A stretch of 64,000 nucleotides of DNA from Octopus sinensis (lineage: Eukaryota): NCBI RefSeq assembly GCF_006345805.1, contig NC_042998.1, positions 157,914,001 to 157,978,000 on the forward strand. Direction: 5' to 3'. Of the stretch, positions 1,541 through 54,138 are shown piece after piece. How positions within the stretch are numbered: position 1 is the first letter of the stretch; each line of letters opens with the position of its first letter. The position numbers and the translations under genes are program-made. The notes under the pieces are model-generated. The model saw nothing but the letters and a program-made list of their open reading frames with translations, was not told the origin of the DNA and did no database searches.

Positions 1541-3060
1541 CATCAAGGGAGGTGTCTGCAGAGATTACGCTTTGCTAGTTACCAAGAGCTTAAATGAAGC
1601 CTCTTTAGAACGAACTAGGAAAGATCTGCACAAATTTTTCAATAGCCTCATTCTATCTGTTACTTTTGAAAATTCCCACGAAAACACAGAAGTTTTCTAG
1701 ATGCAACTTTAAACTTAGAAACCTCCCAGTAATCCCCATATTACAAACCTAACCATTACCTGAAGTACTTAAACATTAATCCCAATCACCACAAATCCAC
1801 TATTGATTATATAGTTAAGAGTATCTCAATTCGTATATCAGGCTGCTCATCCACTGAGGAAATATTCGATAACCACACCCCATATTACAACAAAGCGCTC
1901 GCTGCCAGCGGCTTCTCCCAACAAATAAAATACAACCCTAATACTAGGCTCAAGCAACATATATCTCAAATCATATCACAGCAACATGCCAACCACAAGA
2001 ATTACAACAGACCACACACACACAATACTAGAACCCCAGAAGAACCCAGATTAAGACAACTTAGGCCCCACACGCACACATATAACACTAAGTCAAAAGC
2101 TAAAACAGCTAACAATAACGTGCCTTATTACCCGCCTCTAATTTCTAAAAATATAGATAACACTACCCTTAAGCAACCCAAAAAAAAAGCGGTGGACGTT
2201 CTATTCTATGGTATACACCTCCCTTCTCACAAAACGTTAAGAGCTTAGTTAAATCCTTTTTTAATATACTGGACTCCAACTTCCCTTGTCAACATAAACA
2301 TTTCTCTATTTTTAATAGATCTACCTTAAGGCTATCCTACTCACTATCATAACAGTGTCTAATAAACGAAAATTTTCTATATTATCAAAACTTACGTTGT
2401 AACAAGTCTGAACAGACGCGCGCCCAACATATACATAGCTCCAATATCGAGCCCTATACTTTAGTCCACAACAGAAACCCTACTAATCCCACTAACCAGA
2501 ATAATACTACTACCACTTCCAGCCCTATCACAGATAGGATACATAACAACAACGATAGAGTTAGTAACGATAATAATAATATTAATAACATAGACCAGTC
2601 TACCCCCATCTCTAACCCATCCTCTAACAGTATTACTCCCTCCATTCCTGAGAATAATCCCCACCATACACTACCATGTAACTGCCGACTTGGGACCATC
2701 TGCCATCTACAAACCCATTGTAGAAGGTCTAATATAATTTATAAATGCCCCGTCCTCCACACGCTACAACCATATATATGGGATCAACTCTACAACCATA
2801 TATATGGGATCAACTATAAATTTTGAACAGCGATACGCTGCGCATCTCAATTCTTTTAGATACGAGAAACATAGTAAACCCACAACACTCGGCAGCCACA
2901 TACATAATTCTCAAAAATAGAAATATTCCCTACATCTAGTCATGTTTCATAAGAGATTCAGGGCTTCCATACCAAGGAAGCTATGCCTAGAAGAGGCATT
3001 CCGCATATTGAAACACAACTTTTCAATACTATTAAAAATAAATATAACAAGGCCTTAAAG
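1541..3060 (+). mobile_element. Penelope-like element (Naiad-like), 5'-truncated: end of RT, thumb, CxCx5Cx5C linker, GIY-YIG endonuclease; decayed
   Basis: Manual translation gives CRDYALL (degenerate YRDD), PYYKPN...YLNINPNH, EIFDNHTPYYNKALAASGF, PFSQNVK, SIFNRSTLRLSYS, CNCRLGTICHLQTHC, NIIYKC and FEQRYAAHLNSFRYEKHSKPTTL. Confidence 0.8.
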
Positions 3061-3220
3061 CAACCTAAATAACAACACAGCACATATCCCCAACGACCCT
3101 TTTTGACTTTACATTAAATTTTTAACTCTCCAATCTTATTTTAATTGTCTAATACTACACATATGCGCAGCATATGGGTACGTATGCGGATGTATGTGCG
3201 TATGTATTTGTATATACATA

Positions 3221-3258
<38 letters not shown>

Positions 3259-3356
3259 CATACATACATATATATATATATACATACATATATATATATA
3301 TATATATATGCGTGTGTGTGCGTGTGTGCGTGTATGTGTGTACATGTATATACATA

Positions 3357-3531
3357 TAAAATCTTTATAACAATTTATCAAGTGTAGTCAGCGTGAAAAA
3401 CTTCATAAAGGAAAAATTATCGATTATTCCCTTTAAATATATTTTTCCCTTATGAGGTTTTTCCCTTTAAATAATTTTTCCCTTATGAGGTTTTTCCGTT
3501 GACTACTTCATAAATTCTTGTAAAGATTTTA
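3357..3531. repeat. Imperfect inverted repeat (fold-back element) with an internal ~33-bp tandem duplication
   Basis: aaatctttataacaatttatcaagtgtagtcagcgtgaaaaacttcataaaggaaaaatt is the reverse complement of atttttcccttatgaggtttttccgttgactacttcataaattcttgtaaagattt, with mismatches. Confidence 0.75.
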
Positions 3532-3546
3532 TCCTATTTTAAAATT

Positions 3547-3740
<194 letters not shown>

Positions 3741-3822
3741 GTTTACACACATGTTCACACGCACTTACATACATATACATCGATACACACACACATATAC
3801 ACAGATATGACAGAAGTAAATA

Positions 3823-4165
3823 CACACCCTGTAAGCACCCTTATAATTGTTAAAATTATTTACATCTGAAATTAAATATTCAAATTATTTGTTAATTATT
3901 GTAATGTGAATATCTAATATTTAATAGATATCACCTTGGCATTTTTCAATGTTACTGATCAGATGATTGTTCTCTTGAGGAATTTCTTGCCAAGTTTCGT
4001 GCAGTAATCTCAAAACATTTAGGTTTGGGGATGCTTTCTGATTCTTTATATGAAGTGTCCTATCCATAACGTCCCAGAAGTGTTCAATAGAGTTCATATC
4101 TGGCGACTGGCTTGGCTATGGAAGCTTTTTAATGGGATTATCTTCCAACCAATTTTGTGTCCTTT
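3823..4165 (-). mobile_element. Tc1-like transposon 3' end (C-terminal transposase plus probable TIR)
   Basis: Minus-strand translation gives PSQSPDMNSIEHFWDVMDR...LHETWQEIPQE (SPDLNPIE motif). The terminus is TA|CACACCCTG at ~3821. Confidence 0.7.
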
Positions 4166-4920
4166 TAAATAAAGAGACATCATTTGACCACTTGAGAAGT
4201 TTGGAAGGAGTCCCTTCTGCAATATGGGCACATATTTAACTGAGTTTCTTAACCGATCTTGCGCTGCTCCGTTGGTATTCTTAGCTTGATCTAGAGCATC
4301 ATCCCTATAAATAGCGAAGTATACACCAGGAAAAGCTTTTCCTAACGTGTCAAGCAGGAATAATCCAATGAGATCCATAATATGACCATGTGCTTATATA
4401 GAAAGAACCCTCTGGTCTGCTGTCTCGACCCACTCTGTGTTCTTGCTGAAGAGTAAGGTCTATTTTTCTTGTTCATTAATCTCTGTAAAATCGCTTGCGA
4501 AACTCAGGGCTCTATCTAGCGGTTTTCTAGAAATAAATGCATAGAAATCTACAATATCAAATTGTGTAAATGTTGCTAAATTCTTATTTCTAAATGCTTT
4601 AAACCAGTTAACAACTTCTATACTATTGGACTGTGGTACTAAATCAGTTGCCCCTCTAACTTTAGCATTGGTTTAAAAAATAATTCCTACTAATTATACC
4701 AATTTCTGATCTTGCAGGGTTAATCAGTGTGCATTTAGGATTAGATAGGAAGTTCTTTTTATGGTTCTGAATAGTTATAAAGACCTCTTTTTTATTTGGA
4801 AGGATCTCTATTTATTTTTAACTAATTTAAACCTAGCGGCGATGAAACTACTTCTTTATGAATGTCGTTATAAACTTGCAGTCTAGCTTTAGTGTAATTA
4901 CTAATACAATTGTTATGTAG
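4165..4920 (-). mobile_element. Penelope-like element reverse transcriptase fragment
   Basis: Translation gives LINPARSEIG, IEVVNWFK, FTQFDIVDFY and DLIGLFLL...AIYRDDAL (ORF 4094-4378), all PLE RT motifs. Confidence 0.8.
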
Positions 4921-4934
4921 GAGTTGTATGTGCT

Positions 4935-5007
<73 letters not shown>

Positions 5008-5045
5008 GCGAGTGACTTGATCTGAGATCGTGTGCTGGAAATAAA

Positions 5046-5192
5046 ACAATTGCAGCGTGGAAGGTGTTTATGAGCCATTTAAGAAACACACAAAACCGTT
5101 AGATTCACTTCAAATTAAACTTAAATGTTGAAGTGAATCTAACGGTTTTGTGTGCTTCTTAAATGGCTTATAAACACCTTCTACGCTGCAAT

Positions 5193-10904: not shown

Positions 10905-10961
10905 TGTATGTATGTATGTATGTATGTATGTACTTTATTAAAAAGCAGTGAAAATATCACG

Positions 10962-11007
10962 AAAACTGTTACTCAGAGTTTCACGTTCCCGTTCGTCGGA
11001 CAGTTTT
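10962..11007 (-). ncRNA. Type I hammerhead ribozyme, minimal, U4C core variant
   Basis: Minus strand: aaaactgt CCGACGA acg-ggaa-cgt GAAA ctc-t-gag TA acagtttt. Stem I is 8 bp, stem II 3 bp, stem III quasi-palindromic, cleavage triplet GUA. Confidence 0.7.
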
Positions 11008-11016
11008 GTTCTAAAC

Positions 11017-11062
11017 AAAACTGTCCGACGACCAGGAACGTGAAACTCTGAGTAACAGTTTT
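11017..11062 (+). ncRNA. Second hammerhead copy in the opposite arm (stem II mutated)
   Basis: aaaactgt CCGACGA cca-ggaa-cgt GAAA ctctgag TA acagtttt. Confidence 0.5.
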
Positions 11063-11175
11063 TGTGATATTTTTGCTACTTTTTAATAAAGCATATTACT
11101 CTACCTCTGGTATTCGACTACTATTTTTTCCACCTTGTTTCGCATTTATGTGATTAATCTAATATATATATATGT

Positions 11176-16398: not shown

Positions 16399-16870
16399 AG
16401 TAAACAAATGGCACAACGAAGCACCGATATTTACTGGAAAATAGCGAACGTAATAAATACGACGCTAATGTATAGCTTCACTGCGTATGTACTAGTAAAG
16501 ATGCGTGTGTGCAACAAACATGAAAAGAATTGTCTTACCTCTAGGAAGAACATCTGAAAAATGAAAAACCTAGAAACGGATAATGCAGTACCGATTTCAG
16601 ATTCTTCAAAATACGTTTGCCAACGTATATCTGATTTATCTTCATCAGCTGCATATACCTCGACAATATTTCAAATGTTGCCACATATATGCCAGTACAC
16701 TCGTCTGGACGCCAAAACGTTAACATAACGAGAACAGTGAAGAAGTTTCAATGAAAATAGTAATGCAATATTTTAGTACATACGAGTGAAGCTATACATT
16801 AGCGTCGTATTTATTACGTTCGCTATTTTCCAGTAAATATCGGTGCTTCGTTGTGCCATTTATTTACTTT
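16397..16870. repeat. Inverted repeat (~100-bp arms, 16397-16500 and 16765-16870) enclosing a hammerhead ribozyme; PLE pseudo-LTR structure
   Basis: aagtaaacaaatggcacaacgaagcaccgatatttactggaaaatagcgaacgtaataaatacgacgctaatgtatagcttcac pairs with a near-exact reverse complement. Confidence 0.9.
16583..16654 (-). ncRNA. Type I hammerhead ribozyme, canonical core, extended stem II
   Basis: Minus strand: atgcag CTGATGA agat-[aaatcagatatacgttggcaaacgtattttgaaga]-atct GAAA tcgg TA ctgcat. Confidence 0.8.
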
Positions 16871-21353: not shown

Positions 21354-21709
21354 ATATATGTATATATATATATATATATAATAGAGAGAGAGATTATGAG
21401 AGGTAATGGTGTCAATAAGACCCAAAGGTGTCAGGTAATGCTGAGTAAGTGCTATGGACAGACCATAGTTATGCTCCAGTTTCAGTGATTATGCGAATAA
21501 GGAGTCCAACATATTGGAATGACCAATTTTGAATACGATTCAAATTCACTCGCAAGTTATTGGTATTTTATATGTATACGATTCTGCCTAAATAATGGAT
21601 CTACAAATATAATATCCCTGCATGTCTCACATCTATTTTCATTCCTCCACTTCACTCACTATTTCATATCTTACCTAAATTAACTATTGCTTAACCATTT
21701 TCTTACACC

Positions 21710-21758
21710 GTCTCCGATGAATGGGTGCAGAAAAATATCCCGGAGACAGCTGTAAGAC
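21710..21758 (+). ncRNA. Degenerate type I hammerhead (CCGATGA core, GAAA>GAGA)
   Basis: gtct CCGATGA at ggg...ccc g GAGA cagctg TA agac, with palindromic stem III acagctgt. Confidence 0.5.
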
Positions 21759-21879
21759 ATATTTATAAATGTTCTAAAATCTTCACAACCTGGTTTTTTA
21801 TCTCATTCTGAAAATAAAATTATAGACATATACATACAATATATATATATATATATATATTTATTTATTATATAGAAGG

Positions 21880-21930
21880 AGCTTCTACAGGACTAGAACT
21901 GTTTCATTCAAGAGAAATCTTCAGGAAGCT
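21880..21930 (-). ncRNA. Type I hammerhead ribozyme (family D)
   Basis: Minus strand: agcttc CTGAAGA t-ttc-tctt-gaa-t GAAA cag-ttctagtc-ctg TA gaagct. Confidence 0.8.
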
Positions 21931-22099
21931 AGTTAACAAGAATTGTATTGGCCTTTATACATTTAGGCAGGTTTAAAGGGGTGTTGGTGGGGGACTTTTA
22001 GGGGGTAGGCATAGCGCAAAAAATCATACTTGGGGGAGTGGTCAAGGAGTCAGTGTTAAATTAGATAGGAGAATAAATAAAAAATAAAAAATAAAAAAT

Positions 22100-22130
<31 letters not shown>

Positions 22131-22239
22131 TATAGAAAAAAAATAAAAAATAAAAAATAAAAATAGAAAATAGAAAATAAAAAAATATAAAAAAATAAAA
22201 AAATAAAAAAATAAAAATAAAAATAAAAAAATAAAAAAA

Positions 22240-22284
<45 letters not shown>

Positions 22285-22985
22285 GGGGTAAAGGGGGGAA
22301 TAGAGTTTTAGGTAAATAAGGAGATTCTCACTTATACCTCTACACATACACACATATATATACAATCACACATACATATACATATCTACACATACACATA
22401 TATGTATACATACACACACTCACTTGCATACACGTATACACACAGTATATATACACACATGTATATATACACACACGACCACACATACATATACACATAT
22501 ATATACATACACATATATATATATATATACACACATATATATACATATGTGTACCCATGCATACCTACACATACACACATATATATATACATATACAAAT
22601 ACAGACCCATTCCCTAATTTTAATTTTATTATCTTCGTTTATTACTTTTGTTATCTTTGGCCGCTTGGTCACAAACATCTTGGCTATGACAGCCAGACCA
22701 TTTATCCGTCTACTGGGAAAACAATTACTCATTCACTCACGCACACTCTTTAGCACGTACACTCACTCATTCGTACACTCATACGCATACACGCACGCAC
22801 GCGTTATATTCATACATACATACATCTACATACATTCACGTATATACACATACGTACGCGTACCTACAGATTCATGTCACACTCTTAGAAGGCTAGTCTA
22901 TACATATACACAATAAATATAAATACACACACATACATGTACACCTACATACAAATACATACATGTACATATATATATATATATA

Positions 22986-23019
<34 letters not shown>

Positions 23020-23146
23020 CGCGTACCTACAGATTCATGTCTACACTCTAGAAGGCTAGTCTATACATATACACCCATAAGTATAAATACACACACACTA
23101 CATACATGTACACCTACATACAAATACATACATGTACATATATACA

Positions 23147-23195
<49 letters not shown>

Positions 23196-23391
23196 ATATA
23201 TACATATATATACATATTATATATTCATACTAACATGCATACTCAAAAAATAAGTAAATAGTAAATATATATACGCGCAGTATTCATACATGCATACTCA
23301 AAAAAAAATATTAAGTATATGTACGTGCAGTTACCTATTATATAGACGGATACATACATATAATAAACTTACACACATAGATATAATATAG

Positions 23392-23446
<55 letters not shown>

Positions 23447-23820
23447 CATACATACACACACATATATATAAATATATACATACACCACATACACCTACAT
23501 ATACACAACATACAAATACATATAATAATATTATATATATATAATATATTACACACACACACACACATACACATACATATACATACACATACATACATAT
23601 ATATACACATACCTACACATGTACATATAAATACACACATAGATAACTCTACGTACCTACACATACATAAACACACGAGCGTACGCGCATATGTACATAT
23701 ACATATACCCATGCACACGCATATATATACACACATACATACACATACACACATGTATACACACACACTCACATACACATATATATACATACACATATAT
23801 ATACACATATATATATATGT

Positions 23821-23865
<45 letters not shown>

Positions 23866-24176
23866 TACACACACACACATACACACACATATATATATAC
23901 ATGTGTGCAAACATACATACATTCTCATACAAGCACACACACTTACATTTACATATATACACACACTTACACACATATCTATACATACACACATACATAT
24001 ACACATACATATGCATACACACAAATATACATATATACATACATACATCTATACATATATACACACACACACACACACACGCACATACATATATATATAT
24101 ATATATATTATATATATACACACATATATATATATATATATATATACATATATATATGTGTGTATATATACATATA

Positions 24177-24217
<41 letters not shown>

Positions 24218-24436
24218 GCGTGTGTGTGTGTGTGTGTATATATGTATAGATGTATGTATGTATATATGTATATTTGTGTGTATGCATATGTATGTGTATA
24301 TGTATGTGTGTATGTATAGATATGTGTGTAAGTGTGTGTATATATGTAAATGTAAGTGTGTGTGCTTGTATGAGAATGTATGTATGTTTGCACACATGTA
24401 TATATATATGTGTGTGTATGTGTGTGTGTGTATGTA

Positions 24437-24489
<53 letters not shown>

Positions 24490-24844
24490 GTGTATATATA
24501 TGTGTATGTATATATATGTGTATGTGAGTGTTGTGTGTATACATGTGTGTATGTGTATGTATGTGTGTATATATATGCGTGTGCATGGGTTATATGTATA
24601 TGTACATATGCGCGTACGCTCGTGTGTTTATGTATGTGTAGGTACGTAGAGTTATCTATGTGTGTATTTATATGTACATGTGTAGGTATGTGTATATATA
24701 TGTATGTATGTGTATGTATATGTATGGTATGTGTGTGGTGTGTATATATATATATATATAATAATATATGTATGTATGTGTGTATGTGTATATGTAGGTG
24801 TATGTGTGTATGTATATATTTATATATATGTGTGTGTATGTATG

Positions 24845-24875
<31 letters not shown>

Positions 24876-24890
24876 TTATTATATAGAAGG

Positions 24891-24940
24891 AGCTTCTACA
24901 GGACTAGAACTGTTCATTCAAGAGAAATCTTCAGGAAGCT
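24891..24940 (-). ncRNA. Hammerhead family D copy (one A missing from GAAA)
   Basis: Same as the 21880 copy except tgttcattc versus tgtttcattc. This could be a homopolymer sequencing error. Confidence 0.55.
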
Positions 24941-26114
24941 AGTTAACAAGAATTGTATTGGCATTTATACATTTAGGCAGGTTTAAAGGGGTGTTGGTGG
25001 GGGACTTTTGGGGGTGGCATAGCGCAAAAATCATACTTGGGGGAGTGGTCAAGGAGTCAGTGTTAAATTAGATAGGAGAATAAATAAAAATAAAAAATAA
25101 AAATAAAAAATTAAAAAAATAAAAAAATAAAAAATAAAAATAGAAAATAATAAAATATAAAAATAATATAAAAAAAGTATTATAAAAATAAAAATAAAAA
25201 AAAAAAATTTTTTAAATAAAAAAATATTAAAAAAACAAAATATATATATATATATATATATAAAGGGGGGAATAGAGTTTTAGGTAAACAAGGAGATTCT
25301 CACTTATACCTCTACACATACACACATATATATACACTCACACATACATATACATATCTACACATACACATATATATGTATACATACACACACTCACTTG
25401 CATACACGTATACACACATGTATATATACACACACGACCACACATACATATACACAAAGAAAAATATATATATACATACACACACACACAATACTCACAT
25501 ACACGCATTCACACAAATCCATACACACACATGCACACACAGCACACTAGTCCCTATATACCATATATACACACCACACACATATACATACACCCACACA
25601 TACACATACATACAATATATATATACATACATACACATACATATACACATATATATACATACACATATATATATATACAACATATATATACACATATGTG
25701 TACCCATGCATACCTACACATACACACATATATATACACATATACAAATACAGACCCATTCCCTAATTTTAGTTTATTATCTTCGTTTATTACTTTTGTT
25801 ATCTTTGGCCGCTGGTCACAAACATCTTGGCTATGACAGCCAGACCATTTATCCGTCTACTGGAAAACAATTACTCATTCACTCACGCACACTCTTAAGC
25901 ACGTACACTCACTCATTCGTACACTCATACGCATACACGCACGCACGCGTTATATTCATACATACATACATCTACATACATTCACGTATATACACATACG
26001 TACGCGTACCTACAGATCATGTCTACACTCTTAGAAGGCTAGTCTATACATATACACCCATAAATATAAATACACACACATACATGTACACCTACATACA
26101 AATACATACATGTA

Positions 26115-26161
<47 letters not shown>

Positions 26162-26604
26162 CGCGTACCTACAGATTCATGTCTACACTCTTAGAAGGCT
26201 AGTCTATACATATACACCCATAAATATAAATACACACACATACATACATGTACACCTACATACAAATACATACATGTACATATATATATATTTTTATATA
26301 TTATTTTTTTTTATTTATTTATTTTTTTTTTTTTATTGTTTTGTTTTTTTTTATAATATTTTTTTTATATTATTTTTTTATATTTATTATTTTCTATTTT
26401 TATTTTTTATTTTTATTTTATTTTTTTTATTTTTTATTTTTATTTTTTTTTATTTTTTATTTATTCTCCTATCTAATTTAACACTGACTCCTTGACCACT
26501 CCCCCAAGTATGATTTTTTGCGCTATGCCTACCCCCAAAAAGTCCCCACCAACACCCCTTAAACCTGCCTAAATGTATAAATGCCAATACAATTCTTGTT
26601 AACT

Positions 26605-26654
26605 AGCTCTTGAAGATTTCTCTTGAATGAAACAGTTCTAGTCCTGTAGAAGCT
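26605..26654 (+). ncRNA. Hammerhead family D copy (stem I/core junction altered)
   Basis: agctct TGAAGA tttctcttgaat GAAA cagttctagtcctg TA gaagct. Confidence 0.55.
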
Positions 26655-26737
26655 CCTTCTATATAATAAATTAATTTTACTCTGCTATGTATTGAGTACC
26701 TTATTTACTGTGGTTAACCCCGAATCAACCCGGGACC

Positions 26738-26790
<53 letters not shown>

Positions 26791-26954
26791 ATGTGTGTAA
26801 GTTTATTATATGTATGTATCCGTCTATATAATAGGTAACTGCACGTACATATACTAATATTTATTTTTGAGTATGCATGTATGAATAACTGCGCGTATAT
26901 ATGTTACTATTTATATTTTTGAGTATGCATGTTAGTATGAATAATATATGTATA

Positions 26955-26999
<45 letters not shown>

Positions 27000-27145
27000 T
27001 ATATATATGTATATATGTACATGTATGTATTTGTATGTAGGTGTACATGTAGTATGTGTGTGTATTTATACTTATGGGTGTATATGTATAGACTAGCCTT
27101 CTAAGAGTGTAGACATGAATCTGTAGGTACGCGTATATATATATA

Positions 27146-27196
<51 letters not shown>

Positions 27197-28343
27197 TGTA
27201 TGTATTTGTATGTAGGTGTACATGTATGTGTGTGTATTTATATTTATTGGTGTATATGTATAGACTAGCCTTCTAAGAGTGTAGACATGAATCTGTAGGT
27301 ACGCGTACGTATGTGTATATACGTGAATGTATGTAGATGTATGTATGTATGAATATAACGCGTGGTGCGTGTATGCGTATGAGTGTACGAATGAGTGAGT
27401 GTACGTGCTAAAGAGTGTGCGTGAGTGAATGAGTAATTGTTTTCCAGTAGACGGATAAATGGTCTGGCTGTCATAGCCAAGATGTTTGTGACCAAGCGGC
27501 CAAAGATAACAAAAGTAATAAACGAAGATAATAAAATTAAAATTAGGGAATGGGTCTGTATTTGTATGTATATATATATGTGTGTATGTGTAGGTATGCA
27601 TGGGTACACATATGTATATATATGTGTGTATATATATATATATATATGTGTATGTATATATATGTGTATATGTATATGTAGTATGTATATATATGTGTAT
27701 GTATGTGTATGTGTGGGTGTTATATATATGTGTGTATGTGTATATATGTGTATATAGGGACTAGTGTGCTGTGTGTGCATGTGTGTGTATGGATTTGTGT
27801 GTGTATGCGTGTAGTGTATGTGAGTAGATGTGTGTGTGTGTATATATATATTTTTCTGTGTGTATATGTATGTGTGGTCGTGTGTGTATATATACATGTG
27901 TGTATATATACATGTGTGTATACGTGTATGCAAGTGAGTGTGTGTATGTATACATATATATGTGTATGTGTAGATATGTATATGTATGTGTGATTGTATA
28001 TATATGTGTGTAGTGTAGAGGTATAAGTGAGAATCTCCTTATTTACCTAAAACTCTATTCCCCCTATTTATATATATATATATTATATATATATATTATA
28101 TATATATATTTTTTTTTTATTTTTTTTTTTTATTTTTTTTTTATATTTTTTTTTTTATTTTCTATTTTTATTTTTTATTTTTTATTTTTTATATTTTATA
28201 TTTTTTTATTTTTATTTTTTATTTTTATTTTTATTTTTTATTTATTCTCCTATCTAATTTAACACTGACTCCTTGACCACTCCCCAAGTATGATTTTTTG
28301 CGCTATGCCTACCCCCTAAAAGTCCCCACCAACACCCCTTTAA

Positions 28344-29407
28344 ACCAGTAAATAATTGGGGTTTTTTTAAAAGCCTTTATAGAAATTTTACTCTTATTAT
28401 TATAATACTATTTGGATTTTTCACTCCCTTTGACAACCTAACTGTTCCCCATCTTATGGAACTATTTTTGTAATGCGCATGGCAAAATTTGGAGGGAAGA
28501 TTTATGAATTCAAACGTCTATGTAGGTTTAGCTTTTGCTCACTTCCTTCAAATATTTTGATGTCGCATGGTCAGAAGGTTTGAGGTACGTAGCATTTGAT
28601 AAATCTATGATAAATCTTTTTCAATGGAAAGCTGTGCTGAAGAAGGATGTGAAATATATATGCAATGTATATGAAATATATATCAAAAAATATATATGAT
28701 ATATATTCAATATGTTTATAATCCAGAAACATGATGTTCACAGATAACCGCCAGACTTCGTATTCGTTATCTATTCCTTCTGGTTTTGCATATGTGAATT
28801 ACAGGGTCTGTCATGCCGGAGTCCAACTTTGATAGAAATAAGCATTCTTGACTGCTATTTCTATTTTTCGGTATGCGGTCAAGCAACCTGTTTTGCCTGT
28901 TCCCTTCTTCTTTATATACAATATATATACTGAACTTTACAGAAGTTCCTGCCGGTAATCGGCTATATTTACATACCGAATTCTACCAGTAAATAATTGG
29001 GGTTTTTTTAAAAGCCTTTATAGAAATTATTTACTCTCTTATTATATATTACTATTTGGATTTTTCACTCCTTTGACAACCTAACTGTTCCCCATCTTAT
29101 GGAACTATTTTTTAATGTAATCGCATGGCAAAATTTTGGAGGGAAGATTTATGAATTCAAACGTCTATGTAGGTTAGCTTTTGCTCACTTCCTTCAAATA
29201 TTTTGATGTCGCATGGTCAGAAGGTTTGAGGTACGTAGCATTTGATAAATCTATGAAATCTTTTTCAACGGAAAGCTGTGCTGAAGAAGGATGTGAAATA
29301 TATATGCAATGTATATATATCAAAATATATATGGAATATATATTCAATATGTTTATAATCCAGAAACATGATGTTCACAGATAACCGCCAGACTTCGTAT
29401 TCGTTAT
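28344..29407. repeat. Tandem duplication, ~641-bp period (second copy partial), identity uncertain
   Basis: accagtaaataattgggg starts at 28344 and again at 28985. The copies differ mainly by small indels. Confidence 0.85.
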
Positions 29408-29475
29408 ATATATAAAATATATATATATATAATATATATATATGTATATATATATATGTTATAGTGTCTATATAT

Positions 29476-34812: not shown

Positions 34813-34846
34813 CCACACACATAAATATAATATCCGTCTTTCTGTC

Positions 34847-34904
<58 letters not shown>

Positions 34905-35322
34905 CGTGCGTGTGTGTGTGTGTATACGTACATTCTTTTATTAGGTAGGGGGAAAATTTATCTCTTTGAATTTTGCCTTTGGCTTATCATGACTGATCAT
35001 AAAATATAACGAACCAACGCGCTATGTGTGAGATTGGTGGCGGGCATTACAGGTAACTAGGTTGGCGTGTTTGATCATAATCCACTCATTCCTTTGTATT
35101 GAGATCTAAATCAGATATTTGTCCCATATACATCATGTACATCATATATTGTATATTGCACACGCATACACGCACGTACGCAGTCGCATGCTCACACGCA
35201 CACACACACACACACATATATGTATCATATATACCATACGTTATATATTACATAATATATATATACATATATATTTATATATATATGTACGTATATCCAT
35301 AGCATATGTGTATATCTATGTA

Positions 35323-35396
<74 letters not shown>

Positions 35397-35455
35397 ATAT
35401 ATCTATCTATCTATCTATCTATCTGTATCTATCTGTCTATTATCTATCTATCTAG

Positions 35456-35513
<58 letters not shown>

Positions 35514-36501
35514 CATACATATATATAATATATATATATATATTATATATATATTATATATATATATAATATACATAACATATATAATATATATATATAT
35601 ATTATAATATATATATATATACATACATCATATATATATATATATATATATAAAATACAAAAAAGGACAACAAAATCCAGATAGACGATACTAAAACAGC
35701 AAGGACGGGTCATTCGAAGCATTTTATCCTCAGTCAAGATCCGGATCATACTCGCAATTTCGGCTGATTAATCTTGAGATTGCTCCAATCTGGCCAGCCA
35801 CAAGGAAAAACTAGGCTAACAGCATTAGATTCCTTGGAAAAAAAAGCATCGAATGTANNNNNNNNNNNNNNNNNNNNNNNNNNNNNNNNNNNNNNNNNNN
35901 NNNNNNNNNNNNNNNNNNNNNNNNNNNNNNNNNNNNNNNNNNNNNNNNNNNNNNNNNCACACACCAAATATAATATCCGTCTTTCTGTCTGTATATGTGT
36001 GTGTGTGTTGTGTGCGTGTGTGTGTGTTGTGTGTGTGTGTGTGTGGTGTATGTGTACGTGCGTGTGTGTGTGTGTATACGTACATTCTTTTTTAGGTAGG
36101 GGGAAATTTATCTCTTTGATTTTTCCTTGGCTTCTCATGACTGATCATAAAATATAAACGAACCAACGCGCTATGTGTGAGATTGGTGGCGGGCATTACA
36201 GGTAACTAGGTTGGCTGTTGTGATCATAATCCACTCATTCCTTTGTATTTTGAGATCTAAATCAGATATTTGTCCCATATACATCATGTCATGCATATAT
36301 TGGTATATTGCACACGCATACACGCACGTACGCAGTCGCATGCTCACACGCACACACACACAGCACACATTTATGTATCATATATACCATACGTTTATAT
36401 ATTACATATATATATATACAATATATATTTATATATATATGTACGTATATCCATAGCATATTGTATATCTATGTATCTGTCTGTCTGTCTATCTATCATC
36501 T

Positions 36502-36550
<49 letters not shown>

Positions 36551-36656
36551 ATATCTATCTATCTATCTATCTATCTGTATCTATCTGTCTATTATCTATC
36601 TATCTAGTTATATATTATATAGATATATATATATATCTATATATACATACATAATA

Positions 36657-36710
<54 letters not shown>

Positions 36711-36942
36711 CATATATATATATTATATTTATAATAAAATACAAAAAAGGACAACAAACATCCAGATAGACGATACTAAAACAGCAAGGACGGGTCATTC
36801 GAAGCATTTTATCCTCAGTCAAGATCCGGATCATACTCGCAATTTCGGCTGATTAATCTTGAGATTGCTCCAATCTGGCCAGCCACAAGGAAAAACTAAG
36901 CTAACAGCATTAGATTCCTTGGAAAAAAAAGCATCGAATGTA
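34813..36942. other. ~1-kb direct duplication on either side of a 100-N scaffold gap (35858-35957); probably unmerged contig overlap
   Basis: 34813-35857 is repeated at 35958-36942 with small indels, and the copies abut the gap exactly. Confidence 0.85.
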
Positions 36943-37451: not shown

Positions 37452-38033
37452 AAAAAATGGAAAATACATCTAAATCATATCGATTACTAGATAATATCCA
37501 ATCACATACTTTATTAAACCACCACATAAAAACTGTAAGGACAAACATAATAAAGTAGAACAAAATAGTGTACAATAAAGGAGTGTACATAAAGGAGTAA
37601 TGTTATACAGTAAGTACAATATCTATAAGATAATATAAAAATAAGTGAATATAAGTATAGATATAGACTACATCTTACAGCTGTTTCGGCCTTGCAGATA
37701 AGCATGTCTCGTAGTTATAAATGAGACATTTACAAAAATATCCTAAGGCCTTACAGTTTGTCCTTACAGTTTCTTATGTGGTGGTTTAATAAAGTATGTG
37801 ATTAGGTATTATCTGGTAATCGATATTTGATTTAGATGTATTTCTCCATTTTCTTATTTTGTATTATGAATTTATGGTAAAACATTTTACCTTTACCCAT
37901 ATAATACAGTAAGTGAATTAATTGCATCGCAATTATTAACATTTATGTATTAACTTTGTTGGGTACTTAACTAGTGGTAAATTGGATATATGTTATCCCA
38001 TGGAGGGTTGCATTTACAACCCCTATCTCAATT

Positions 38034-48177: not shown

Positions 48178-48519
48178 AATTCAAATATTACATTATATAA
48201 AGGGCTTAGTAAAATAAATTACTTTGCCACATACTGAAATCATTAGAAATAGTAGCTAAAAAAAATTTTTTAGAACTATTTCTAATACTTAAAGAAAATC
48301 TCTCAAATAGTGTTTGTCAATTCAACTCACGAAAGTGATTTTTTAATGTCTTTACCCCCATACTTTCGTGAGTTGAATGAGCAAACACTATTTGAGAGAG
48401 ATTTTCTTTAAGTATTAGAAATAGTTCTAAAAAAGTTTTTTTAGCTACTATTTCTAATGAGTTCAGTATGTGACAAAGTTATTTATTTTACTAAGCCCTT
48501 TATATAATGTAATAATTTG

Positions 48520-48523
<4 letters not shown>
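48178..48523. repeat. ~345-bp palindrome with nested sub-hairpins in each arm
   Basis: aattcaaatattacattatataaagggcttag...tcaactcacgaaagt, a ~25-nt loop, then the reverse complement. Confidence 0.9.
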
Positions 48524-52281: not shown

Positions 52282-52992
52282 TATATCAGTAACGGTGATG
52301 TAAAACGCACAGCCTGTCTCAAGAGATTTCAACTTGAGCATGCAGCGATATACAATGAATACCACAACATCTTTTACTCAGCGCTTTCTCGATTCTCTAG
52401 CCACTACTCCATTTAAAAACAATTCTAACTGTCGGTGAAAGCAACGTATAGTCTCTTCTTAGCAACCCTGAACTGATAAACAGCAAATTTGAAACATGAA
52501 TTTCAACGTGAATTACAAGTAATTTCACGTAATGATCACCTTATTTTGTTATCCACTGCTATTTCTAATTCAAATATTATATTAACGCTGTAAATTTAAT
52601 ATAAATTCTTATACTTCTTCTAATGCATATAAAGGAACAACTAGTATTGTATATGTACAAGCGATTATTCAAGTACACGATTAATGTAAAGAAAGGTGGA
52701 TTATTTCCCATTAGGCAACTAGCTTTAGATTCAGGAGTTGTACTTATTGCAAGTGCAGGTATGGCTATATGGATAAGGAATTCACTAGGCAACCATATAT
52801 TATCGGATTAGGCTTTACTGAGTGGCACCTTTTGCTAGTGTTTTCTACTAATAACCTCTGGCTTATTATTGCTTTGTGAATGAAATTAGGAGGGAAATAT
52901 GCAATTCATATGTGTGTGTGTTTCCTTTAAGTTCGTTTATGTAAAACGTATTTTGAGTGCGTGGAATGAAAAGCTCCTATGCTATTTTTTTT

Positions 52993-53217
52993 ACTTGGGG
53001 GAGCGGTCAAGGAGTCAGTGGTAAATTAGATAAAAGAATAAATAAAAGAATAAAAAAATATATAGAAGAATAGAGTTTTAGGTAAATAAGGAGATTCTCA
53101 CTTATACCTATACACATATGTATACATATATACACACACACACACACATATACATACACAAATGCATACATACACACACATATATACATACACACATATA
53201 TACATACATATATCTAC

Positions 53218-53252
<35 letters not shown>

Positions 53253-53434
53253 TGCATATACATATACACAGACACATGTATATATACACACACGACCACA
53301 CATACATATACACACAAAAAAAATATATACATACACACACATACACATACACACATACACACACATATCCACATACACACATGCACACACAACACACAAG
53401 TCCCTATATACACATATATACATATACACACACA

Positions 53435-53468
<34 letters not shown>

Positions 53469-54102
53469 CACATATGTGTACCTATACCTACCTACACATA
53501 CACACATATACATACAGATACAAACCCATTCCCTAATTTTAATTTTATTATCTGTGTGGTCGTGTGTGTATATATACATGTGTGTGTGTATATGTATATG
53601 CATATATGTGTGTATATATGTATATATATATATATATATATATGTAGATATATGTATGTATATATGTGTGTATGTATATATGTGTGTGTGTGTATGCATG
53701 TGTGTATGTATATGTGTGTGTGTGTGTGTATATATGTATACATATGTGTATAGGTATAAGTGAGAATCTTCTTATTTACCTAAAACTCTATTCTTCTATA
53801 TATTTTTTTTTATTCTTTTATTTATTCTTTTATCTAATTTACCACTGACTCCTTGACCACTCCCCCAAGTATGATATTTTTGCGCTATGCCTACCCCCAA
53901 AAAGTCCCCCACCACCACCCCTTTAAACCTGCCTAAATGTATAAATGCCAATACAATTCTTGTTAACTAGCTTCCTGAAGATTTCTCTTGAATGAAACAG
54001 TTCTAGTCCTGTAGAAGCTCCTTCTATATAATAAATTAATTTTACTCTGCTATGTATTGAGTACCTTATTTACTGTGGTTAACCCCGAATCAACCCGGGA
54101 CC

Positions 54103-54105
<3 letters not shown>
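52993..54105 (+). mobile_element. Independent copy of family D element with inverted 5' segment (52993-~53550) and full pseudo-LTR end
   Basis: Same islands as the 21.9-28.3 kb array. Arms ~52993-53310 and ~53552-53870 are inverted. The copy ends aaccccgaatcaacccgggacctac then (AT)n, as at ~26740. Confidence 0.85.
53969..54019 (+). ncRNA. Type I hammerhead ribozyme (family D), intact
   Basis: agcttc CTGAAGA tttctcttgaat GAAA cagttctagtcctg TA gaagct, with AATAAA shortly downstream. Confidence 0.8.

Positions 54106-54138
<33 letters not shown>

What the first reader, a model, noticed from the sequence alone, without database searches (positions are those of the whole stretch)
21862..28346. 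6.5-kb nested palindrome built from a microsatellite-bodied, ribozyme-carrying element
Seen: the block order is A-C-D-B | B'-A-C | A'-D'-C'-A'(partial), where A is the HHR-bearing terminal module. The >2-kb body looks like simple (TA/CA) repeat, but its irregular pattern and unique islands are copied faithfully between arms and again at 53 kb. It is therefore a mobile unit disguised as microsatellite. Three HHRs face both ways. Established: PLE insertions produce tandem and inverted pseudo-LTRs. Inference: repeated template switching or fold-back priming during reverse transcription, or iterative insertion into its own (TA)n tracts, built the array. Transcripts would form kb-long dsRNA, and two same-strand HHRs (21880, 24891) could excise a ~3-kb RNA able to circularise.
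Basis: partly seen in the sequence, partly recalled or inferred. Interest (0 to 1): 0.75.

Follow-up and report, generated by a model that had tools for sequence, protein, structure and literature searches.

The report
Penelope element nested in itself
This palindrome is a stack of truncated tail ends of a protein-coding Penelope-type jumping gene whose long untranslated tail looks like a microsatellite; one two-armed copy sits inside a TA repeat of another copy, likely because the element inserts into TA repeats that it carries itself.

Summary
The block order is real. The 'microsatellite body' is the ~2.7-kb 3' untranslated region of an autonomous Hydra-clade Penelope-like element (PLE): monomer ~5.0 kb, RT plus C-terminal GIY-YIG frame, type I hammerhead (HHR), 5,563 exact HHR-half matches in this genome. 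Insertions are two inverted, 5'-truncated arms ending +23 and about +94 nt past the predicted cut (one of each in 25 of 25 other two-ended loci). The array is an inner two-armed copy (24874-26742) inside an internal (TA)n of an outer copy; the tract is split cleanly and alleles follow the nesting. Two of the three HHRs in the array have a core defect as assembled; the proposed 3-kb circle is not a unit of the element. One other locus (L099) has a 2.1-kb unit joined at the HHR cut three times, a possible fossil RNA circle (n=1). Long reads were not available. The scan noted two-armed HHR elements before on other DNA of this and other genomes.

The parts
21400..21835 (.). Left flank: an older, unrelated dispersed repeat whose end carries the (TA)n target
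   Evidence: 4526 candidates, 79-89% identity among the 40 scored
21838..21862 (.). (TA)n at the left end of the outer insertion
   Evidence: sequence
21863..24145 (-). Arm 1: outer left arm, 3' UTR of the Hydra PLE from about monomer position 2510 to the short end (+23 past the cut); lacks ~200 bp between islands C2 and C3
21880..21930 (-). Type I hammerhead motif, intact core, predicted cut after 21886 (GUA)
   Evidence: descriptor scan
24145..24870 (+). Arm 2: start of the outer right arm (B2-B1), ending in the left part of the element's internal B1-D1 (TA)n tract
   Evidence: maps to monomer 2509-3278; 0 substitutions in 231 sites against arm 1
24874..26300 (-). Arm 3: inner insertion, left arm (C6-C1, A1, HHR, short end)
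   Evidence: maps to monomer 3651-5090; own alleles
24891..24940 (-). Hammerhead motif lacking one A of GAAA as assembled
26283..26742 (+). Arm 4: inner insertion, right arm (T-rich tract, A1, HHR, 70-nt tail)
   Evidence: 0 substitutions in 144 sites against arm 3
26605..26654 (+). Hammerhead motif with C3 read as T and one base missing in stem I as assembled; predicted cut after 26648
26672..26742 (+). 'Tail': leader that in tandem copies runs on to the ATG at +139 past the cut
26743..26788 (.). Right part of the split internal B1-D1 (TA)n tract
26789..28346 (+). Arm 5: continuation of the outer right arm (D1, C6-C1, part of A1); lacks the last ~180 bp with HHR and tail
   Evidence: maps to monomer 3381-4988; 1 substitution in 562 sites against arm 1
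28344..29411 (+). 1.67 units of a second, non-coding ~645-bp repeat with one type I HHR motif per unit (cores at 28637 and 29281; predicted cuts after 28738 and 29375), same sense as arm 5, joined over a 3-nt microhomology, ending in (TA)n
   Evidence: junction found once in the genome
29411..29520 (.). (TA)n-rich tract at the right end; single-copy flank beyond it
52985..54107 (.). Separate short two-armed insertion of the same family (left arm without HHR, right arm with intact HHR at 53969-54019, + strand, and tail)

Best explanation
The array is made of 5'-truncated 3' ends of one autonomous Hydra-clade Penelope-like retrotransposon, with an inner two-armed copy lying inside an internal (TA)n tract of an outer two-armed copy, most likely because it inserted there later. 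Shown: the element's layout (HHR, 70-nt tail and leader, ORF of about 713 codons, 2.7-kb microsatellite-like 3' UTR, HHR), the fixed pair of end points, the split tract and the allele pattern. Inferred: the element's GIY-YIG domain nicks both strands of a (TA)n; each nick primes reverse transcription on RNA from one source, at +23 and at about +94 past the HHR cut; the two cDNAs grow towards each other and are joined, which gives inverted arms without fold-back. Because the 3' UTR holds long (TA)n tracts, each new copy offers new targets to its own family. The right end was then likely replaced by a ~645-bp retrozyme-like repeat, either as a third insertion with loss of ~180 bp (my odds 55%) or by a template switch during synthesis of the outer right arm (35%).
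For: Autonomous element: longer copies carry an RT and endonuclease frame directly upstream of block B; L073 reads 661 codons with RWR, DK, YRDD, CxCx5Cx5C and YIG; 1802 homologues, best about 40-52% identical, one with a Pfam GIY-YIG hit. 3' UTR 2164-3944 nt in 25 measured copies, 46-68% in alternating pyrimidine-purine runs against 15% in the rest of the window. Ends: of 86 distinct HHR copies in loci L001-L100 plus the window, 36 end at the tail, 35 at the short end, 15 run into the ORF, none elsewhere; one tail and one short end in 25 of 25 other loci where both outer ends were in the fetched stretch (read); 72 of the first 100 listed exact matches stand in divergent pairs within 10 kb (counted by eye). 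Same source for both arms: 36% of rare alleles shared within a locus (32 inverted pairs) against 0.9% between loci (3745 pairs). Independent priming: arms without overlap in L176, L178, L184. Nesting: arm 2 ends and arm 5 begins in the same B1-D1 (TA)n, contiguous on the monomer; arm1/arm2 0 of 231, arm1/arm5 1 of 562, arm3/arm4 0 of 144, but arm1/arm3 8 of 550 and arm3/arm5 4 of 433; three-way sites 4:0:1 for arm1=arm5. The same tract holds a 1.1-kb foreign insert in L081. Two RT start sites bounding the tail, and cleavage and extension of both strands, were shown in vitro for the anole PLE (PMC11167929).
Against: No long read or independent contig was seen to span any junction of this locus; the one junction tested was not bridged in the 32 listed of about 1000 pieces, and no empty allele exists in the assembly. 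The allele test rests on 5 three-way sites, and consensus polishing could blur arms. One private allele shared by arms 1 and 5 was found at no other locus by exact match, so the source copy is not identified. No second case of self-nesting was sought successfully: my only pattern search for it gave no result. No copy has an unbroken full frame as assembled (longest 679 aa of 18 ATG-bearing copies), and Pfam gave no hit on this element's own RT or endonuclease. No RT tree was built. The outer arms start at nearly the same point, as a fold-back would give.
Confidence: 0.78

Rival explanations
1. One reverse-transcription event with repeated fold-back priming or template switching built the whole array.
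For: Arms 1 and 2 start at nearly the same monomer position in a self-complementary (TA)n, giving a near-perfect 1.5-kb palindrome. The inner junction also lies in (TA)n. The fusion to the 645-bp repeat is in sense and has a 3-nt microhomology.
Against: The inner block has its own complete pair of family ends (short and tail), sits exactly in a split internal (TA)n, and carries different alleles from the outer arms. Non-overlapping arms elsewhere cannot come from fold-back.
Confidence: 0.09
2. Assembly artefact: fold-back chimeric reads or mis-joined repeat copies in an indel-rich long-read assembly.
For: Copies differ mostly by small indels, typical of unpolished long reads; two HHR cores have single-base defects seen in none of 29 ungapped copies from ORF-picked loci; a gap with a duplicated 1-kb flank lies at 34.8-36.9 kb; no read-level proof was obtained.
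Against: A mirror read would be symmetric throughout; here the mirror stops after 740 bp at a family-specific end, arm 1 has a 200-bp deletion that arm 5 lacks, and each end obeys the family rule seen at 25 other loci. The family itself is in 20 of 24 listed runs from 10 studies.
Confidence: 0.08
3. A simple insertion was later rearranged as DNA (inverted duplication, gene conversion, palindrome-induced deletion).
For: Palindromes are unstable (general knowledge); the 200-bp deletion in arm 1 and the lost right end may be such secondary events; arms 1, 2 and 5 share private alleles.
Against: DNA duplication would not create a new tail end and a new short end at the two sides of an internal (TA)n, nor alleles peculiar to the inner arms.
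Confidence: 0.05

Closest known systems
Hydra-clade Penelope-like elements, including Hydra-1_Obim of Octopus bimaculoides (Craig et al. 2021, PMC8557442; passages, sections 11 and 15, supplement rows)
   Same: Single RT plus C-terminal GIY-YIG frame, DKT, CxCx5C linker, CxxC and CxH around the conserved E and N, no CCHH, canonical HHR, (TA)n targets, partial tandems, inverted 5'-truncated copy, tail at one end.
   Different: Monomer ~5.0 kb against 'generally <3 kb' (Hydra-1_Obim 2507 bp); the excess is a ~2.7-kb microsatellite-like 3' UTR with its own (TA)n targets; tail ~70 nt against 30-40; RWR for RWK; the HHR sequence differs from the one listed for Hydra-1_Obim, so it is another family (compared by eye).
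PAc / Poseidon of Anolis carolinensis (Frangieh et al. 2024, PMC11167929; parts 1-2 of 4 read)
   Same: Two internal RT start sites downstream of the HHR that bound the tail; AT-rich targets; both strands cut and extended in vitro.
   Different: Other clade; here both start sites lie in a non-coding leader before the ATG and end in TA-like bases that could pair with the target, whereas PAc starts inside the ORF without homology to the cut DNA.
Metazoan non-LTR retrozymes (PMC7229834, passages; bioRxiv 10.64898/2026.07.22.740005, part 1 of 5 and passages)
   Same: Fits the second repeat at 28344-29411: non-coding tandem unit, one type I HHR per unit, low GC.
   Different: Unit ~645 bp against ~220-400; short, often two-armed arrays ending in (TA)n; a ~75-nt AT-rich loop II; circles not tested. 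The main element is not a retrozyme: it encodes its own enzyme.

Membership tests
Hydra-clade PLE | Single ORF, RT followed by C-terminal GIY-YIG endonuclease | tested here: met
   Motifs YRDD and YIG in order in one frame of L073; homologue P0063 has Pfam GIY-YIG. No Pfam hit on the element's own protein; no unbroken full copy.
Hydra-clade PLE | RWK motif near the N-terminus | tested here: met
   Present as RWR, aligned with RWK of P0108
Hydra-clade PLE | DKG modified to DKT | tested here: met
   SDKTKN in L031 and L100
Hydra-clade PLE | CxCx5C linker | tested here: met
   CNCPDKTTC
Hydra-clade PLE | No CCHH in the endonuclease; CxxC and CxH beside the conserved E and N | tested here: met
   One Cys only before YIG; CDLC..E and N..CMH present (by inspection)
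Hydra-clade PLE | Canonical type I HHR in the pseudo-LTR | tested here: met
   Descriptor hit, 0 in 100 shuffles; in 29 copies from ORF-picked loci 1 of 36 core and stem positions vary against 5 of 13 N7 and loop positions, p=0.003, copies not independent. Cutting not tested.
Hydra-clade PLE | Insertion into (TA)n | tested here: met
   Tail and short ends run into (TA)n
Hydra-clade PLE | Usually shorter than 3 kb (typical, not defining) | tested here: not met
   Cut-to-cut 5019 nt in L082; about 4.6-5.0 kb in L084, L085, L093
Hydra-clade PLE | Groups with Hydra in an RT tree | not tested
Non-LTR retrozyme (main element) | Non-coding, non-autonomous unit | tested here: not met
   The unit encodes RT and endonuclease
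Non-LTR retrozyme (645-bp repeat) | Non-coding tandem unit with one type I HHR each | tested here: met
   Tandem and inverted arrays in 12 loci; HHR motif; no frame of 170 codons or more there
Non-LTR retrozyme (645-bp repeat) | Expressed as self-cleaved linear and circular monomer RNA | not testable with these tools
   Needs RNA work
Foldback or MITE DNA transposon | Two identical terminal inverted repeats of fixed length | tested here: not met
   Ends differ by 70 nt and arm lengths vary freely

The most novel reading that the evidence does not exclude
The element is copied from an RNA circle made by its hammerhead, read from two start sites at once. Locus L099 (G000:C2:87789.7-87793.4 kb) would be its fossil: a 2.1-kb unit in which the ORF is joined to the first base after the HHR cut (within a 2-nt ambiguity), present three times in one insertion (twice in tandem, once in the inverted arm) and at no other place found. 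The sense fusion to the 645-bp repeat at 28346 would record the same enzyme switching between a retrozyme RNA and its own RNA. This would be genomic support for the 2014 proposal that PLE tandems arise from HHR-made circles and for PLEs as the drivers of animal retrozymes.
Probability: 0.33. Interest if true: 0.72.

Novelty: new variant of a known kind. Interest (0 to 1): 0.42.

Why it matters
It shows that kilobases of apparent TA/CA microsatellite in this genome are the inherited 3' UTR of a young retrotransposon, which repeat masking would hide, and that an element carrying its own target can pile up into long palindromes. The fixed pair of ends in thousands of copies, the shared source of both arms and the non-overlapping small insertions give a testable picture of how Penelope-like elements make inverted insertions, a step that Craig et al. 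call unresolved. L099 offers a specific lead on the open question of what the PLE hammerhead does. The architecture itself (tandem and inverted pseudo-LTRs, tail, TA targeting) is already described.

Tried and rejected
Rfam scan: no hit. RNAfold: the HHR fold is not the minimum-energy fold; a hairpin over the cut site competes (constrained fold probability 0.02 down to 0.0001 with more flank), which says little about tertiary folding. Pfam and PDB searches with the element's own protein parts: nothing. Sequencing runs: no RNA holder listed. Empty allele: none in the assembly. Pile-up of 5' truncations at the HHR cut, expected if cut linear RNA were the template: not seen; 39 pattern matches at the cut, about 17 loci with a true junction, against 48 matches 20 nt upstream, of which about 22 of the 30 read are true junctions (the patterns catch only part of all junctions). 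A second circle-like junction: none among those 39. Enrichment of arm-to-arm joins in (TA)n: 6 of 21 against 19% of the UTR, not convincing. More fusions of the two families: none in 40 Hydra loci of up to 9.9 kb or 11 retrozyme loci. Sequence kinship of the two families: none beyond TA runs. arm counts included mis-mapped islands (arm1/arm2 9 of 278); one search repeats them with islands limited to those each arm holds. A non-autonomous unit 'tail-(TA)n-D-C-A' was considered and rejected because the matching B half lies on the other side of the inner block. Literature: searches gave no paper describing this family, a microsatellite-like PLE 3' UTR or PLE self-nesting; Repbase/Dfam were not searchable, and the supplements of the 2026 preprint were not seen.
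Full report
Observation. Arms align at 88-96% with many small indels, and almost without substitutions in gap-free island columns. A descriptor for type I hammerheads finds four intact motifs in the window and none in 100 shuffles. Only one of these (cut after 21886, minus strand) lies in the stated interval; the motifs at 24891 and 26605 each have a core defect as assembled. The 53-kb copy is a separate short insertion.

What the element is. The HHR module has 1347 candidates in the 2.7-Gb genome, the best 40 at 99% identity, and a 28-nt piece of the HHR matches exactly 5,563 times. In longer copies a reading frame lies directly upstream of block B. L073 reads 661 codons from near the ATG; in L082 the ATG is 138 nt after the predicted cut, the stop 2141 nt later, and the next cut at 5019 nt. 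Motifs match the Hydra clade as defined by Craig et al. 2021 (section 11): RWR for RWK, DKT, CxCx5C, no CCHH, CxxC and CxH. It is not Hydra-1_Obim, whose length and HHR differ (supplement rows). The 3' UTR is 2.2-3.9 kb in 25 copies, about 60% alternating pyrimidine-purine runs. So the whole array is 3' UTR plus HHR ends; it holds no coding part. The host is an animal, likely an octopus (inferred from the genome's size, the published relative and earlier scan notes; not tested).

How copies end. Of 86 distinct HHR copies, 35 stop at +23 past the cut, 36 at about +94, and 15 run on into the ORF. In 25 of 25 other loci with both outer ends in view there is one of each kind, pointing outwards into (TA)n (loci were top hits, not a random sample). 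The two arms of one insertion share 36% of rare alleles against 0.9% between loci. Some tiny insertions have arms with no common sequence. This fits two cDNAs primed on opposite target strands at two internal start sites, as found in vitro for the anole PLE (PMC11167929). The priming model is inferred here, not shown.

The array. On the monomer, arm 2 covers 2509-3278 and arm 5 covers 3381-4988, and the gap is the (TA)n between islands B1 and D1. Between them lies a complete insertion with a short end at 24874 and a tail end at 26742. Arms 1, 2 and 5 agree (0 of 231 and 1 of 562 sites), arms 3 and 4 agree (0 of 144), and the two groups differ (8 of 550, 4 of 433; three-way sites 4:0:1) (alleles against other copies). 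L081 has a foreign insert in the same tract. I read this as two events. Against it: few informative sites, no reads, no empty allele, and no second self-nested locus found.

The right end. Sequence 28344-29411 is 1.67 units of another repeat (1462 candidates, 91-96% identity over the full query in the 40 scored), ~645 bp, with a type I HHR motif and tandem or inverted arrays ending in (TA)n. It joins arm 5 in sense over three shared bases, where arm 5 should continue to its HHR and tail. The junction occurs once in the genome and no such fusion was seen in 51 other loci. A later insertion with a ~180-bp target deletion and a template switch both fit.

The hammerhead and circles. Core and stems are conserved across subfamilies while N7 and loops vary (1 of 36 against 5 of 13 positions in 29 copies), so the fold appears selected. 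A hairpin over the cut competes with it in secondary-structure models. Insertions do not pile up at the cut, so the usual template is continuous across it: uncut tandem RNA or a circle. Circles were proposed for PLEs in 2014 (PMC4209133, passage), while the anole work found cutting unnecessary in vitro. L099 holds a 2.1-kb unit whose ORF is joined to the base after the cut, three times in one insertion, and the pattern found it nowhere else. This suits an RNA circle or end-to-end jumps on a cut RNA; a nearby 5-nt similarity allows a DNA circle or homology-assisted switch instead, and it is one case.

Comparison and verdict. It works like, and by motif is, a Hydra-clade PLE; the RT tree was not made. 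The long microsatellite-like UTR, self-nesting and fusion to a retrozyme-like repeat were not found in print (searches; passages of PMC13282606, PMC7229834, PMC7761336 and the 2026 preprint). Earlier scan notes describe two-armed HHR elements in this and related genomes, though none matched this family by sequence; my reading was written down before I saw them. Verdict: real, largely explained by known PLE biology, with two testable leads. Interest 0.42.

Noticed in passing
L099 4150-7700 (G000:C2): Insertion built from a 2.1-kb unit lacking the 3' UTR and HHR, with the ORF joined to the base after the HHR cut in all three copies; tail end and short end both present.
   Followed up: partly
window 28344-29411: Second HHR repeat family (~645 bp) with a ~75-nt AT-rich loop II and a GUU cut triplet; ends cluster near unit positions 160, 280 and 642.
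   Followed up: partly
L086 5550 / L087 4400, and L091 4360 / 8530: Two-armed insertions whose outer ends lie inside the ORF, about 68 and 25 nt apart on the monomer; the first spacing equals the normal tail length. L086 and L091 abut the same other repeat.
   Followed up: partly
L081 6800-7850: A 1.1-kb foreign insert in the same B1-D1 (TA)n tract that holds the inner insertion in the window.
   Followed up: no
L089, L090, L096, L097: Older subfamily (about 90% identical) with CUGAUGA core in part of its copies, changed loop II and a differently built microsatellite-like 3' UTR.
   Followed up: partly
window 21400-21835: Older repeat with thousands of candidates, often with an inverted piece; its (TA)n end is the target of the outer insertion.
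   Followed up: no
window 34814-36942: A 1-kb direct duplication on both sides of the 100-N gap at 35858-35957, probably an unresolved contig overlap.
   Followed up: no
window 10933-11091, 16406-16861, 37462-37843, 48178-48523: Further small inverted repeats, possibly two-armed insertions of other families.
   Followed up: no
window 28346 and 52985: Two arms in this window break off within the G/C-run part of block A1 and lack the HHR end.
   Followed up: no
L033 7357-8490: A single arm whose 5' end joins a different microsatellite-like sequence with its own islands.
   Followed up: no
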